This document shows, one piece after another, positions 1 through 3,307 of a DNA stretch of 64,000 nt. Position numbers and translations under genes: made by a program. This DNA comes from an uncultured Chloroflexia bacterium. GTDB lineage: Bacteria > Chloroflexota > Limnocylindria > Limnocylindrales > CSP1-4. Location of the stretch: assembly GCA_963768655.1 (NCBI GenBank), contig CAVYIM010000006.1, forward strand, positions 128,001 to 192,000, given 5' to 3'. The stretch's first letter is position 1; every line of letters begins with the position of its first letter. The notes beneath the pieces are model-generated. The model worked only from the letters and a program-made list of their open reading frames with translations, ran no database searches and was not told the origin of the DNA.

Positions 1-81
1 GGTCACGTCGCTCTCGAGTGGGCCGGCACTACCGGCTCCAGCGCCAACATCGCTCTCGATATCACCGGCTACTGGAAGTAG
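1..81 (+). CDS. 3' end of an upstream gene (partial), GHVALEWAGTTGSSANIALDITGYWK*
   Basis: Frame 1 is open from base 1 to TAG at 79-81 with GC3-rich codons. The terminal 'xxDITGYW' resembles the repeated beta-strand domains of secreted proteins. Confidence 0.6.
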   Translation, partial: GHVALEWAGTTGSSANIALDITGYWK

Positions 82-231
82 GGAGCGGGGGGAGGCGCGC
101 TCCTCGGCTCGTTGGACCCTCGCAGACGCTCGGAGGCCCCGGCCCGCGCCGGGGCCTCGGACCACGTGGCGGCGGGCGAAGGGACGCCCGGCTCGGGGCT
201 CGGCCAGGGGCTCGGTCCGGGTCCTCGCGCC

Positions 232-240
232 TGCTATACT
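232..240 (+). promoter_or_regulatory. Extended -10 promoter (TGcTATACT) for the purA leader and pur operon
   Basis: TG-N-TATACT at 232-240, about 7 nt before the start of a long base-paired leader. Confidence 0.6.
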
Positions 241-246
241 TCGGCC

Positions 247-433
247 GGCCTGGGGACCGAGGAACCCCGGGCTGCCAATGCCAATCGCCAAGGAGTGCAC
301 GTTGCCGCACGAAGGCGTGCCGTTCGCCCCGTGAGACGAACCACCACCTTCACGCCCCAGGGAGCCGCGGCGGCTCCTACGGAGGGGCAGTCTACCCAGG
401 TCCCCGGCCGCTCGGTCGAGGGCCTTTTGGTTT
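247..433 (+). ncRNA. Candidate structured 5' leader (riboswitch/attenuator-like or 6S-like rod) upstream of purA
   Basis: Nested complementary blocks: 247-258/399-409, 269-276/386-393, 291-295/374-378, 302-308/367-373, 311-315/347-351 and 322-326/337-341. A hairpin at 406-424 plus TTTTGGTTT follows. Confidence 0.5.
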
Positions 434-486
434 CCCGGGGTTGGCACAGGGACGACCGCCGGGGCGAGCACCGCAGGGAGGACTAG

Positions 487-1851
487 ATGCCCGCCACCGT
501 GATCGTCGGCCTGCAGTGGGGCGACGAGGGCAAAGGCAAGACGACCGACTTCCTGGCCGAGGGCGTTTCGGCCGTCGTCCGCTATCAAGGCGGCGACAAC
601 GCCGGTCACACGATCATGCTCGGCGAGGAAGTCTTCAAGCTCCACCTCGTCCCCTCGGGCGTGCTCTACCCGCACATCACGCCGATCATCGGCAACGGCG
701 TGGTCGTCAACCCGGCAACCCTCCTGACCGAGTTCGAGATGCTCACCAGCCGCGGCATCGAGGTCGATCGCGTCCGGGTCAGCAAGCACGCCCACGTGAT
801 CATGCCCTACCACATCGCTCTCGACGGAGCGATGGAGGCCCGCCTCGCGAAGGCCGCGGTCGGGACCACGCGGCGGGGAATCGGGCCCGCATACGCGGAC
901 CGCGCCTGGCGGATCGGCATCCGGATGGAGGACCTGCTCGACGCCGTGGCCCTTCGGGGCAAGCTGGCTCGAATCCTGCCCGAGAAGAACGCCACACTCC
1001 AGCGGCAGCATCGGGTCGAGGGTTTCGACCTCGACGAGCTGGTCGAGCAGGCGGCCGAATGGGGCCGGCGCCTCGAGCCCCGCCTGGCCGACACGACCCA
1101 GCTGGTCCAGGAACGCCTGGCGCGCGGCGAGCACGTCCTGTTCGAAGGGGCGCAGGGAGCGCTGCTCGACCTCGACCACGGCAGCTACCCGTTCGTCACC
1201 TCGTCCAACCCGATCGCCGGCGGCGCCTGCACAGGTGGCGGCATCGGGCCGCTGCAGGTCGACGAGGTCATCGGCGTGATGAAGGCCTACGCCACCCGCG
1301 TCGGATCCGGCCCGTTCCCGACGGAGCTGACCGACGCGATCGGCGACGGGATCACCGACCGGGGCCGGGAGTTCGGAACCACTACCGGGCGGCGCCGCCG
1401 GGTCGGCTGGTTCGACGCCGTGCCGCTGCGCTATGCCGTGGCTGTGAACAGCGTCAGCTCGATCATGCTGAACAAGATCGACATCCTCTCGGGTCTGGAC
1501 GAGATCCTGATCTGCATGGCCTACGAGGTCGACGGCAGGCGGGTCGACTGGTGGCCCTCGGACGCCGACGTCCTGGCCCGGGCGACGCCGATCTACGAGC
1601 GCTTCCCCGGCTGGGCCGAGCCGATCCACGCTTGCCGCTCCATGGCGGACCTGCCGGAGAACGCCCGGCGCTACGTGGACGCGGTCGAGCGACTCTCCGG
1701 GGCCCCGATCGCGCTCGTCTCGGTTGGGCCGGAGCGTCACCAGACCATCGAACGAATGGCTCGCCAGCAGCGGCCCAGGCCTTCTGCCGGTCCGGCCGCG
1801 GCGCCCGCGACTTCCATGCGCGCCGCCTCCGGCGCAGCGGTCGAGCGATGA
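487..1851 (+). CDS. purA: Adenylosuccinate synthetase
   Basis: QWGDEGKGK, RYQGGDNAGHT and GTTTGRRRRVGWFD motifs; RBS GGAGG. Confidence 0.98.
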   Translation: MPATVIVGLQWGDEGKGKTTDFLAEGVSAVVRYQGGDNAGHTIMLGEEVFKLHLVPSGVLYPHITPIIGNGVVVNPATLLTEFEMLTSRGIEVDRVRVSKHAHVIMPYHIALDGAMEARLAKAAVGTTRRGIGPAYADRAWRIGIRMEDLLDAVALRGKLARILPEKNATLQRQHRVEGFDLDELVEQAAEWGRRLEPRLADTTQLVQERLARGEHVLFEGAQGALLDLDHGSYPFVTSSNPIAGGACTGGGIGPLQVDEVIGVMKAYATRVGSGPFPTELTDAIGDGITDRGREFGTTTGRRRRVGWFDAVPLRYAVAVNSVSSIMLNKIDILSGLDEILICMAYEVDGRRVDWWPSDADVLARATPIYERFPGWAEPIHACRSMADLPENARRYVDAVERLSGAPIALVSVGPERHQTIERMARQQRPRPSAGPAAAPATSMRAASGAAVER

Positions 1852-3307
1852 GCTCGCCCGCCGGATCCAGCCAGCAGGCCGCCGGCCCGGCGCGAGTGCT
1901 GGTGCTCGGCGGCGGCGGCCGCGAACACGCCCTGGTCTGGAGCCTGGCGCGCGAGGCCGACGTCGAGGCCGTGATCGTGGCCCCGGGCAGCGACGCCATA
2001 GGCGAGGAGCCCAAGGTTCGCTGCATGCCGTGCGTTTCCGCCACGGACCCCGCCGCGGTCCTGGAGCTGGCCACCGCGGATAACGTGGATCTGGTCGTCG
2101 TCGGCCCCGAGGCGCCGCTGGCCGCCGGTGTCGTGGACGTGCTCGAGGAAGCGGGCGTGCCGACCTTCGGGCCGATCCGCTCGGCCGCGCGGATCGAATG
2201 GAGCAAGGCATTCTGCCGCGAGGTCGCCGCCGCCGCCGGTGTCCGGATGGCGCGCGGCGAGCCATTCTGGGCCCTCGAGCCGGCGCTCACGTACGCCCGC
2301 GAACTGGCCGCAGAGCCGGGGTCGCGCGGCGTGGTGGTCAAGGCCGACGGCCTGATGGCCGGCAAGGGCGTCACCGTCTGCGACGACCTCGCGCCGGCGG
2401 AGACGGCCCTGCGGGCGCTCTTTGCCGGCGCCCCGGCCGCGGCGGAGGCCGAGGCGGCTCGTCTCGCCGGCCGGCCCCCGGTGGTCGTGATCGAGGAGCG
2501 CCTCTTCGGGGCGGAGGCGAGCCTGATCGCCCTGTGCGACGACCACGGCGCGCTGGCCCTGCCCCCGGCCCGCGACCACAAGCGCCTGCTGGACGGCGAC
2601 CGCGGCCCGAACACAGGGGGGATGGGAGCCTACAGCCCCGTCCCAGACCTGCCCGAGAGCCTCTGCGCCACGCTCGTCGACATGATCCACGTGCCGATCC
2701 TGGCGGAGCTCACTCGCCGCGGTGCGCCGTTCCGCGGCGCGCTGTATGCGGGCCTGATGCTCACGCCCGAGGGTCCGGTCCTGATCGAGTGCAACGCCCG
2801 ATTCGGCGATCCCGAGGTCCAGGCGCTGCTGCCACGGCTCGCCGTGCCGCTGGGGCCGCTCCTCCTCGGCGCCGCGCGGGGCGATCTCGCCGGGGCAGCG
2901 GCTGAGCTCGGCCTGGTGAGCCGGCTGCTGCCCACGACCGGGGATGCGGCGGTCGCGATCGTCCTGGCGGCGGAGAACTATCCCGAAACGCCGCGCAGGG
3001 GCGACCCGATCGGCGGCCTCGCCGAGGCTGCGCGGGCCGGGGCCACCGTCTTCCATGCCGGTACGGTCCGCGGCGCCGACGGTGGGTACCGCACCAACGG
3101 TGGTCGCGTCCTCTCCGTCGTGGGCCTGGGGAACACGCTCGCCGCGGCGCGTGCCAGCGCCGAGAAGGCCGCGGAGAAAGTGACCTGGCAGGGGATGCAG
3201 CGCCGCCACGACATCGCTGCGAGACCGCCCGTCGCTGCTGACGCGAAGGCCGCGGCCGCCTCGCCGGCTCCAATCTCGGCCGCGGGATGGGAGGAGGGAA
3301 CGCCGCC

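What the first reader, a model, noticed from the sequence alone, without database searches (positions are those of the whole stretch)
232..486. Unassigned ~190-nt structured leader with an overlapping terminator in front of the purine operon (candidate new riboswitch or attenuator)
Seen: an extended -10 (TGcTATACT) is followed by ~160 nt that can fold into one irregular rod of six nested helices. The 3' strand of the basal helix (GGCC, 406-409) can alternatively form the hairpin 406-424 followed by TTTTGGTTT. Other competing pairings exist (361-367/371-377, 314-319/351-356, 263-271/434-442). Known: pur operons are often controlled by purine, ZTP or PRPP riboswitches, and I could not match the conserved cores of any of them here. 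Inference: either an undescribed purine-sensing attenuator or a 6S-like small RNA co-transcribed with purA.
Basis: partly seen in the sequence, partly recalled or inferred. Interest (0 to 1): 0.72.

Follow-up and report, generated by a model that had tools for sequence, protein, structure and literature searches.

The report
Translated purA leader with built-in terminator
A conserved leader of about 190 bases in front of the purine-synthesis operon of uncultured soil Chloroflexota carries a transcription stop signal inside small translated reading frames that end exactly at the first gene, so it probably tunes purine synthesis by how closely ribosomes follow RNA polymerase, not by a classic riboswitch.

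Summary
The promoter, the leader and the terminator are real, and the element has no Rfam match.

- **Distribution.** The element occurs about once per genome in one family of Limnocylindrales MAGs: 36/36 same-genus genomes and 42/44 family genomes with the family model. Outside the family it was found in 2/106 class genomes and 0/147 other phylum genomes sampled.
- **Position.** It lies directly upstream of purA in 68/69 loci.
- **RNA structure.** Three helices (P2, P3a, terminator) covary.
- **Translation (new).** A Shine-Dalgarno-led 10-codon ORF (302-334) stops in the P2 loop GUGA. The overlapping GUG opens a second ORF (331-486) that crosses the terminator and stops at the purA AUG. This frame holds 0 stop codons in 5,955 codons of 121 leaders, against 60 and 40 in the other frames. 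It occurs in 29 different lengths.

Best reading: a ribosome-coupled, pyrBI-like attenuator, perhaps sensing purine NTPs at a G-rich tract. A riboswitch is not excluded. There is no experimental evidence.

The parts
232..240 (+). Extended -10 promoter box TGCTATACT. The transcription start is inferred about 6-8 nt downstream.
   Evidence: Conserved in 37 same-genus sequences. A TATACT-like box sits at the same place in other genera. The consensus promoter scan found no -35/-10 pair. The start site was not mapped.
250..271 (+). 5' hairpin CCUGGGG/CCCCGGG. Its sequence is genus-specific. Other genera carry a GUCCUCGA segment and a CGGGC..GCCCG hairpin instead.
   Evidence: Fold of 248-273: -16 kcal/mol, z -2.94. 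The sequence is variable but mostly self-complementary. Not tested formally for covariation.
290..295 (+). Shine-Dalgarno-like AAGGAG, 6 nt before UUG 302.
   Evidence: AGGAG is nearly invariant in the genus. A script found an SD-like motif 3-11 nt before the conserved start in 64/68 loci; the other 4 were confirmed by eye.
302..334 (+). sORF1: UUG plus 9 codons plus UGA (LPHEGVPFAP*).
   Evidence: Translation. In 54/64 loci the ORF from the SD-proximal start stops in the P2 apical region. In 8/64 it runs to the purA start instead.
311..351 (+). P2 hairpin (311-315/347-351, 317-319/342-344, 322-326/337-341). The apical loop 327-336 contains GUGA 331-334.
   Evidence: In the inner helix 5/5 pairs show compensatory changes and 94% of cells are paired, in 61 sequences of other genera.
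331..486 (+). ORF2: GUG (overlapping the sORF1 stop as GUGA) plus 50 codons plus UAG, directly before the purA AUG.
   Evidence: Translation. The frame ends at -6..+1 of the purA start in 102/121 leaders, with 29 different lengths. Stops per frame: 0 against 60 and 40.
361..377 (+). P3a hairpin GGAGCC/GGCUCC. It is 7-10 bp long in other genera.
   Evidence: z -3.09. Compensatory changes in 6/7 pairs.
378..397 (+). G-rich tract (UACGGAGGGGCAG) followed by the near-invariant UCUACCC block.
   Evidence: The 15 nt before GUCUA are 51% G, 22% A and 3% U, against 36/17/12% in the rest of the leader, in 66 loci. The GGGGCAGUCUACCCAGGUCCCCGG block is invariant or nearly invariant in 36 genus members.
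398..433 (+). Intrinsic terminator: stem 398-409/414-425, U-tract 425-428 and 431-433. It lies inside ORF2.
   Evidence: -18.2 kcal/mol. Covariation in 6/10 pairs. Present in all aligned homologues.
434..486 (+). Variable spacer, still in ORF2. It holds the purA SD GGGAGGA 476-482 and the stop UAG 484-486.
   Evidence: Variability is about 0.29-0.30 at all three codon positions within the genus, yet the ORF2 frame never holds a stop. The gap from the end of the R1 match, which already includes the U-tract, to the purA start is 5-347 nt in relatives.
487..1851 (+). purA (adenylosuccinate synthetase), the first gene of the purA-purD-purB-purC-...-purL operon.
   Evidence: Pfam PF00709, E 1.2e-172; downstream genes in the same call.

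Best explanation
The region is the translated leader of the purine operon and works as a ribosome-coupled transcription attenuator, the same logic as the E. coli pyrBI (pyrL) leader.

Proposed sequence of events:
1. Transcription starts just after the -10 box at 232-240.
2. Ribosomes load at the Shine-Dalgarno sequence 290-295 and translate the 10-codon sORF1 (302-334). This melts the 5' arm of hairpin P2. Translation terminates at UGA in the loop tetranucleotide GUGA.
3. Ribosomes re-initiate on the overlapping GUG (331-333) and translate ORF2. ORF2 runs through the 3' arm of P2, hairpin P3a, a G-rich tract, the whole intrinsic terminator (398-433) and the spacer.
4. ORF2 translation stops at UAG 484-486, touching the purA AUG 487, so ribosomes are handed on to purA.
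5. If the leading ribosome is close behind RNA polymerase when the terminator is made, it covers the 5' arm (398-409). The hairpin cannot form and the operon is transcribed.
6. If polymerase runs ahead, the hairpin forms and transcription ends near 425-433.

I propose that the distance is set by polymerase pausing at hairpins P2/P3a and in the G-rich tract (381-390) when purine NTPs, above all GTP, are scarce. Low purines would then give read-through and more purine synthesis.

Shown by computation: the conserved promoter, the helices, the terminator, the purA linkage, and the two frames with their phase conservation. Inferred: that the frames are translated, the re-initiation, the coupling, the pause, and the identity and sign of the signal.
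For: **Cis-leader**
- purA starts 5-347 nt after the element, on the same strand, in 68/69 loci. In many the distance is only 5-20 nt.
- Both out-of-family hits are also upstream of purA.
- There is one copy per genome.

**Terminator and helices**
-. On a MAFFT alignment of 61 sequences from other genera, 131 cells carry changes on both sides of a pair. Shuffles give 41.6 +/- 7.2 (0/500 reach the observed value) and slid controls give 36-67.

**Translation**
- An SD-like motif lies 3-11 nt before a conserved UUG/GUG/AUC/AUU start.
- sORF1 stops in the P2 apical region in 54/64 loci, mostly at the GUGA.
- In 8 of the other 10 loci, and in the out-of-family locus L201, the ORF from that start instead runs straight to the purA start. 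This includes L084, L089 and L101, which have lost GUGA. L201 was read by eye on the sequence; the script was off by one base.
- The GUG frame ends with a stop at -6..+1 of the purA start in 102/121 non-identical leaders. There are 29 different ORF lengths (37-149 codons). The stop matches the phase: UGAUG, UAGAUG or UGAC(A/G)UG.
- Between the GUG and 6 nt before purA there are 0 stops in this frame, against 60 and 40 in the other two (121 leaders). After removing redundancy the counts are 0, 50 and 34 (102 leaders).
- The spacer evolves fast at all three codon positions (0.29-0.30) yet stays open.
- purA has no SD-like motif at -18..-5 in 19/68 loci, all with an overlapping or closely preceding stop.
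- purA/purD themselves overlap as AUGA at 1848-1851.

**G-rich tract before the terminator**.

**RNA-library contigs** from 3 runs of 3 studies bridge about 381-385 to 509-636, across the terminator into purA. This is weak evidence: the contigs come from relatives and DNA carry-over is not excluded.

**Precedent**
- pyrBI: the terminator lies within the 135-bp leader peptide gene and tight coupling prevents the hairpin (passages of PMC4824070 and PMC5021804).
- A uridine-rich stretch lets UTP alter coupling, and mgtM adenines let ATP do so (passages of PMC3641672).
Against: - There are no expression, ribosome or 3'-end data for this uncultured lineage.
- All the starts are non-AUG (UUG, GUG, AUC/AUU), and the ORF2 GUG has no SD of its own.
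- In 19/121 leaders the GUG frame does not stop at the purA start. In the 6 loci checked it stops 13 nt inside purA.
- 8 of the 129 leaders examined have no GUGA.
- Within the genus the structured part of ORF2 is conserved at all codon positions (0.07/0.06/0.10). purA third positions vary at 0.20. The RNA or DNA sequence itself is therefore constrained beyond what simple coupling needs.
- The near-invariant GCAGUCUAYCC block is unexplained.
- The ribosome has only about 32 codons to catch polymerase. PMC4824070 (passage) says this is unlikely in the first 100 bp without pausing.
- No pause was shown.
- A GTP-sensitive pause raising purA, which consumes GTP, is only sensible because the operon also carries the de novo genes.
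Confidence: 0.5

Rival explanations
1. A metabolite-binding riboswitch. P2, P3a and the conserved loops form an aptamer for a purine-related ligand. The invariant GGG (384-386 region) pairs either with the CCC of the P2 loop (ligand-bound, terminator forms) or with the UCCC of the terminator 5' arm (antiterminator). On this reading the reading frames only pass ribosomes on to purA.
For: - The architecture fits: promoter, multi-helix RNA, terminator, biosynthetic operon.
- The helices covary.
- Nucleotide-level conservation includes synonymous positions.
- A GNRA-type loop is kept as GCGA in L089, where the stop codon is lost. The GNRA class is recalled knowledge.
- GGG/CCC/UCCC are invariant, so a switch is possible.
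- No known purine or ZTP riboswitch is present elsewhere in the genome, which is 88.6% complete.
Against: - It does not predict the open frame ending at the purA start.
- The one variable pair of the proposed pseudoknot does not covary: 22/61 sequences are non-pairs at columns 91/163.
- The out-of-family copies lack the GUGA loop.
- The distribution is very narrow: one family.
- There is no match to any Rfam riboswitch.
Confidence: 0.2
2. A sensing arrest peptide (TnaC-like). The sORF1 peptide M-[LP]-E-E-G-A-x-[FS]-[AV]-P stalls the ribosome at Pro-UGA when a purine metabolite is present. This blocks re-initiation on GUG, so ORF2 is not translated and the terminator forms.
For: - The sORF1 length (mostly 10 codons) and the residues E-G-A and F/S-A/V-P recur across genera.
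- The last codon is Pro before UGA in most.
- The stop sits where a stalled ribosome would cover the GUG.
Against: - The last residue is R or Q in several genera, and the AUC-class peptides differ (IARG...).
- There is no wobble-type variation in sORF1 within the genus (0.03/0.07/0.07), so RNA constraints explain the conservation equally well.
- Eight loci have no separate sORF1.
Confidence: 0.08
3. An unregulated arrangement. The leader ORFs merely provide translational coupling for purA. The terminator is a constant partial stop that sets the operon's expression level, with no signal sensed.
For: - Coupling signatures are present.
- No ligand or pause was demonstrated.
- 4-nt overlaps are common in this operon.
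Against: - A strong terminator (-18.2 kcal/mol) conserved across more than 40 genera between a promoter and an essential biosynthetic operon is costly without regulation.
- The conserved P2/P3a helices and the G-tract would have no role.
Confidence: 0.12
4. An independent small RNA (6S-like or other trans-acting sRNA) that ends at the terminator and merely sits next to purA.
For: It has its own promoter and a strong terminator about 190 nt apart. One 54-nt RNA-library contig ends at 433 (record 26).
Against: - There is no 6S match and the rod is not conserved.
- It is always upstream of purA, often with no space for a second promoter.
- The frame is open to the purA start.
- RNA-library contigs bridge the terminator.
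Confidence: 0.02
5. ORF2 encodes a functional small protein of about 50 residues.
For: The frame is open and ends in a stop-start junction.
Against: - The length varies from 37 to 149 codons.
- The C-terminal half evolves equally fast at all codon positions.
- The conserved part shows no wobble pattern.
- No family matches in Pfam or NCBIfam.
Confidence: 0.03

Closest known systems
E. coli pyrBI leader (pyrL) attenuator
   Same: - A promoter-proximal leader of a nucleotide-biosynthesis operon.
- An intrinsic terminator inside a leader ORF of about 45-50 codons.
- Tight ribosome-polymerase coupling prevents the hairpin.
- An NTP-rich tract upstream lets the NTP pool set the coupling (passages of PMC4824070, PMC5021804, PMC3641672).
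   Different: - The operon is a purine operon, not a pyrimidine operon.
- The tract is G-rich, not U-rich.
- The leader is read in two stages: a 10-codon ORF, then a GUGA stop/start overlap placed in a hairpin loop.
- ORF2 ends exactly on the start codon of the first gene.
- Extra covarying hairpins are present.
- There is no sequence relation to pyrL.
- The lineage is Chloroflexota.
- Nothing has been tested experimentally.
Salmonella mgtCBR leader, short ORF mgtM (ATP-sensing by coupling)
   Same: A purine NTP is read through polymerase behaviour at conserved purines inside a short translated ORF. The ORF's peptide sequence is not conserved (abstract and passages of PMC3641672).
   Different: - mgtM responds to high ATP.
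- It controls a virulence and Mg2+ transport operon through alternative stem-loops.
- No intrinsic terminator is defined there.
- It is unrelated in sequence.
Amino-acid operon attenuators (trpL type)
   Same: A leader peptide, a pause hairpin containing the start of the ORF, and an intrinsic terminator before the first gene.
   Different: - sORF1 has no run of regulatory codons.
- The ORF does not stop before the terminator but crosses it.
- No conserved 2:3 antiterminator could be shown.
Purine-pathway riboswitches (purine RF00167, ZMP-ZTP RF01750, ykkC-type PRPP/ppGpp)
   Same: The same position and the same expression platform: a terminator in front of pur genes.
   Different: There is no covariance-model match and the cores differ. 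The element is translated.
tnaC leader (arrest peptide ending Pro-UGA)
   Same: A short leader ORF that mostly ends Pro-UGA and whose ribosome position decides downstream transcription.
   Different: tna uses Rho, not an intrinsic terminator. The peptide conservation here is explained equally well by RNA structure.

Membership tests
Known Rfam riboswitch/leader families (all 4227 models) | Covariance-model match to the region | tested here: not met
   cmscan of window 1-3000 at E<=10 gave no hit within 232-486. RF00167 and RF01750 have no hit in the whole genome.
6S RNA | Match to RF00013 | tested here: not met
   0 matches at E<=10 in the own genome, while the control genomes were detected.
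6S RNA | Conserved extended rod with a central bubble | tested here: not met
   MFE z -0.68. The basal helix is not conserved in 36 same-genus sequences.
Ribosome-coupled (pyrL-type) attenuator | Intrinsic terminator between the promoter and the first structural gene | tested here: met
   for the terminator. purA lies directly downstream in 68/69 loci.
Ribosome-coupled (pyrL-type) attenuator | Leader ORF with a ribosome-binding site that extends through the terminator | tested here: met
   SD plus start. The ORF2 frame has 0 stops against 60/40 and ends at the purA start in 102/121 leaders. That it is translated is inferred, not measured.
Ribosome-coupled (pyrL-type) attenuator | NTP-rich pause tract just upstream of the terminator | tested here: inconclusive
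   The tract is 51% G and 22% A, against 36% and 17% elsewhere. No pause was shown.
Ribosome-coupled (pyrL-type) attenuator | Read-through depends on translation and on the NTP pool | not testable with these tools
   Needs reporter or in-vitro assays.
trpL-type amino-acid attenuator | Run of codons for the regulating amino acid in the leader peptide | tested here: not met
   The peptides M[LP]EEGA.[FS][AV]P contain no such run.
trpL-type amino-acid attenuator | Conserved antiterminator that competes with the terminator | tested here: inconclusive
   GGG/UCCC pairing is possible but invariant. MFE partners of the terminator 5' arm were inconsistent, and the script failed on many sequences.
Metabolite riboswitch (new class) | Covarying multi-helix aptamer with conserved junction or loop nucleotides | tested here: inconclusive
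   The helices covary and the loops are conserved. The proposed pseudoknot has no covariation.
Metabolite riboswitch (new class) | Direct ligand binding | not testable with these tools
   Needs in-line probing or ITC.
Arrest peptide (TnaC-like) | Peptide-level (not nucleotide-level) conservation and an invariant C-terminal Pro | tested here: inconclusive
   The last residue is P in most but R or Q in several. There is no wobble signature.

The most novel reading that the evidence does not exclude
The leader is a dual-coded sensor. A structured RNA lies inside a relay of two reading frames, and the loop GUGA of a covarying hairpin is at once the stop of the first frame and the start of the second.

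A purine signal decides whether ribosomes pass the relay. That decision sets both terminator read-through and purA translation. The signal could be read in one of three ways:
- GTP-dependent polymerase pausing in the G-tract.
- A ligand bound by the P2/P3a RNA.
- A stall of the conserved 10-residue peptide at Pro-UGA.

This would be the purine counterpart of pyrBI attenuation, with a re-initiation checkpoint of a kind I have not seen described.
Probability: 0.3. Interest if true: 0.8.

Novelty: new variant of a known kind. Interest (0 to 1): 0.62.

Why it matters
- NTP sensing by transcription-translation coupling rests on very few cases: pyrBI, and mgtM for ATP.
- In the searches run here I found no purine-operon example. 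I also found no example in Chloroflexota, where coupling itself is unstudied.
- This element gives a compact, testable 250-nt module. It has clear predictions for start-codon, stop-codon and frameshift mutants and for GTP/ATP titration.
- It is also a caution for riboswitch hunting. A leader that looks like an orphan riboswitch (conserved, covarying, terminator-bearing, no Rfam hit) carries an open reading frame that only frame-aware comparison reveals.
- It explains how purA can lack a Shine-Dalgarno sequence in a quarter of these genomes.

Tried and rejected
**Tried, led nowhere or rejected**
- The whole-leader MFE as evidence of structure is not significant.
- The 6S idea is rejected.
- RNAalifold on the family-wide MAFFT alignment recovered only the P2 inner helix and part of the terminator. 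The helices were then set by hand and counted.
- Mutual information with APC was dominated by phylogenetic signal.
- A script to find the MFE partner of the terminator 5' arm failed to locate the arm in 48 sequences. It gave mixed partners in the rest, so it is not used.
- Pseudoknot (P2 loop CCC with GGG) and antiterminator (GGG with UCCC): both are invariant. The one variable position does not covary.
- Pairing of the 5' segment GUCCUCGA with CUCGAGGA: one compensatory case (L080) and one wobble case (L148) were seen by eye. It is absent in several clades, including the window's genus, and was not counted formally.
- Model R1, built from the genus only, under-detected family members: 111/151. 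That tally includes one hit in the unpublished genome G141, from which no sequence was fetched or used. R2 found 42/44.
- L102 was a false R1 hit, terminator-like only.
- The promoter consensus scan found nothing.
- Depth figures of the RNA contigs cannot rank leader against purA, and parts without cover are not evidence.
- The run shares were small (0.06-0.13), so no habitat claim is made from them.
- Pfam and NCBIfam gave nothing for ORF2. The second query (an L050 range) was a guessed frame and is not used.
- Literature searches found no description of this element: purA, riboswitch, Chloroflexi: 0 papers; 2 papers, listing only, unrelated; Limnocylindria, riboswitch: 0. Supplements were closed and not consulted. 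About 1.7 million PMC articles are outside the search.
- Not used: the metagenome scan, protein homology searches, and structure prediction.
Full report
**What is at the coordinates**

The window starts with the end of a gene (stop at 79-81). A GC-rich hairpin at 133-158 probably terminates that gene. Then comes the region in question, followed by purA (487-1851), purD, purB, purC and purL.

The box TGCTATACT (232-240) is there. The leader folds locally into four hairpins:
- 5' hairpin, 250-271
- P2, 311-351
- P3a, 361-377
- terminator, 398-425, followed by UUUUGGUUU

The whole 198-nt stretch does not fold better than shuffled sequence (z -0.68). Fold energy in this 70% G+C context proves nothing. 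Rfam has no match at E<=10. The genome has no match to 6S, purine or ZMP-ZTP models either (genome 88.6% complete).

**Conservation and linkage**

- blastn finds the region in 36 of 36 other genomes of the genus at 78-97% identity. It finds it in none of 24 genomes of the neighbouring small-genome family.
- A covariance model of the genus (R1) hits 111 of 151 family genomes, in 41 of 49 genera. The tally includes the window's own genome and one unpublished genome, G141, from which nothing else was used.
- A family-level model (R2) hits 42 of 44 sampled family genomes. It hits 0/6, 0/49, 2/50 and 0/1 genomes of the other families of the class, and 0 of 147 genomes outside the family in a phylum-wide sample.
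- These are samples. The element was 'not found in those searched' elsewhere, which is not the same as absent.
- An exact-pattern scan of species-representative genomes returned 81 loci. Their titles name Chloroflexota / 'Candidatus Limnocylindrales' MAGs from soil, peat and fen, with three odd labels. Which GTDB family names these correspond to is only my recollection.
- purA begins 5-347 nt after the element on the same strand in 68 of 69 loci. The 69th (L102) is a false hit.
- Both out-of-family hits also precede purA.
- In many genera, and in two members of the window's genus, the purA ribosome site follows the U-tract at once. purA must then be read from the leader's promoter through the terminator.

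**RNA structure**

Within the genus the core is almost invariant, so covariation is thin: 4 pairs with double changes against 1.1 +/- 0.9 in shuffles (4/500).

Across 61 sequences of other genera, aligned by MAFFT without reference to structure, the helices P2, P3a and terminator are well supported:
- 81.8% of cells are paired, against 75.6% in shuffles and 34-49% when the partner is slid.
- 131 cells carry changes on both sides, against 41.6 +/- 7.2 in shuffles (0/500) and 36-67 in slid controls.
- The P2 inner helix has compensatory changes in 5 of 5 pairs.

Possible long-range or alternative pairings remain unproven, because the bases involved do not vary or the pairing is absent in several clades. 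These are the 5' GUCCUCGA with CUCGAGGA, and GGG with the loop CCC or with the terminator UCCC.

**The reading frames**

This is the finding that changes the interpretation.

*sORF1.*
- A Shine-Dalgarno-like AAGGAG (290-295) lies 6 nt before UUG 302. The spacing is like that of purA's own site.
- From UUG, 10 codons run to UGA 332-334 (LPHEGVPFAP*).
- The same layout recurs across the family, with start UUG, GUG, AUC or AUU and mostly 10, sometimes 8-9 codons.
- In 54 of 64 loci this ORF stops in the apical region of P2, mostly at the UGA of the loop GUGA.

*ORF2.*
- The GUG of that GUGA (331-333) opens a second frame. It runs through the rest of P2, P3a, the G-rich tract, the whole terminator and the spacer to UAG 484-486, directly before AUG 487.
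- In 121 non-identical leaders with a GUGA loop, this frame ends with a stop at -6..+1 of the purA start in 102. There are 29 different lengths from 37 to 149 codons.
- The kind of junction follows the phase: UGAUG, UAGAUG or UGAC(A/G)UG.
- In the 6 loci checked among the rest, the frame stops 13 nt inside purA.
- Between the GUG and 6 nt before purA the frame holds no stop codon in 5,955 codons. The other two frames hold 60 and 40. After removing redundancy the counts are 0, 50 and 34 in 102 leaders.

*Where GUGA is missing or the start is in another phase.*
- This concerns L084, L089, L094, L095, L101, L104, L105 and L107.
- There the ORF from the SD-proximal start runs straight to the purA start. 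That is 8 of the 10 such loci.
- The same holds for L201 of the other family, read by eye.

*purA ribosome site.* purA lacks a recognisable Shine-Dalgarno motif in 19 of 68 loci. All of these have a stop overlapping or closely preceding the start.

**What kind of selection acts**

Mean minor-allele fraction by codon position, in 33 genus members:

| Region | Position 1 | Position 2 | Position 3 |
|---|---|---|---|
| purA | 0.04 | 0.01 | 0.20 |
| ORF2, structured part | 0.07 | 0.06 | 0.10 |
| ORF2, spacer part | 0.29 | 0.30 | 0.30 |
| sORF1 | 0.03 | 0.07 | 0.07 |

- purA shows the usual coding pattern.
- The leader peptides are not conserved as proteins.
- The structured part is constrained as nucleic acid.
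- The spacer drifts freely except that it must stay open and end at the purA start.
- This is what one expects if the act of translation matters, not its product.
- ORF2 matches no Pfam or NCBIfam family.

**Mechanism**

An intrinsic terminator inside a translated leader ORF that ends at the first structural gene is the layout of the E. coli pyrBI (pyrL) attenuator.
- There, the terminator lies within the 135-bp leader-peptide gene, and a closely following ribosome prevents the hairpin (passages of PMC4824070 and PMC5021804).
- A uridine-rich stretch lets the UTP pool set the coupling (passage of PMC3641672).
- The same paper describes mgtM, where conserved adenines in a short ORF with a non-conserved peptide let ATP alter coupling.

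By analogy I propose the following:
- Ribosomes relayed from sORF1 to ORF2 suppress the terminator when they keep up with polymerase.
- Polymerase is slowed at P2/P3a and in the tract before the terminator when purine NTPs are low. That tract is 51% G and 22% A, against 36% and 17% elsewhere.
- Purine shortage therefore opens the operon.

The frames, their phase conservation, the terminator and the tract are shown. Translation, re-initiation, pausing, and the identity and sign of the signal are inferred.

RNA-library contigs of relatives from three runs of three studies bridge the terminator into purA (about 381-385 to 509-636). This fits read-through transcripts. They are contigs only, and DNA carry-over is not excluded.

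**What remains open**

- The strong nucleotide-level conservation is more than simple coupling needs. It includes the near-invariant GCAGUCUAYCC between the G-tract and the terminator, and the covarying P2 and P3a.
- It leaves room for a ligand-binding RNA embedded in the frames (riboswitch rival, 0.2) or for a protein partner.
- The conserved 10-residue sORF1 peptide, which mostly ends Pro-UGA, could be an arrest peptide (0.08). The data fit RNA constraints equally well.
- A constant, unregulated partial terminator (0.12) cannot be excluded without experiments.

**Novelty**

- The element is in no Rfam family.
- Four full-text searches found no description of it (supplements and non-CC articles were not searched).
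- The kind of mechanism is known (pyrL type).
- The new features are the purine operon, the lineage, the two-stage relay with a hairpin-loop GUGA as stop/start, and the exact hand-over to purA.
- I class it as a new variant of a known kind.

Noticed in passing
window 133-158 (both strands): A perfect GC-rich hairpin GAGGCCCCGGCGCGGGCCGGGGCCUC lies about 50 nt after the stop (79-81) of the upstream gene. It gives weak sub-threshold Rfam hits (BjrC68, raiA-hairpin) on the minus strand. It is probably the upstream gene's terminator, which would insulate the purA leader promoter.
   Followed up: no
window 1848-1851: The purA stop and the purD start overlap as AUGA. Overlapping stop/start junctions are thus used within this operon too.
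   Followed up: partly
L074 (G103:C72), between the leader and purA: The spacer is 347 nt long and the ORF2 frame stays open through all of it (149 codons) to a stop just before purA. It may hold an insertion that was forced to keep the frame, or a real small gene.
   Followed up: no
L201, L202 (genus g57 of another family of the class): Only 2 of 9 genomes of this genus, and none of the other 41 genomes of its family that were sampled, carry a diverged copy of the leader before purA. These copies have a different P2 loop with no GUGA. This suggests either an old element lost many times or a transfer.
   Followed up: partly
window 384-397 and homologues: The block GCAGUCUA(C/U)CC between the G-tract and the terminator is nearly invariant across the family, also at synonymous positions of ORF2. 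No pairing partner or known motif was found.
   Followed up: partly
loci L156, L160, L161: Three records with the exact leader pattern are labelled Sulfotelmatobacter, Thermoleophilia and Dormiibacterota. This is likely mis-binning or labelling, not a wider distribution.
   Followed up: no
window 2690-2739 (-): A sub-threshold hit to D12-methyl RNA (24.3 bits against a gathering score of 57, E 0.15) inside purD. Most likely chance.
   Followed up: no
window 263-271 and 434-442: A perfect 9-bp complement (AACCCCGGG / CCCGGGGUU) links the 5' hairpin and the first bases after the U-tract. It is seen in the window's close relatives only.
   Followed up: partly
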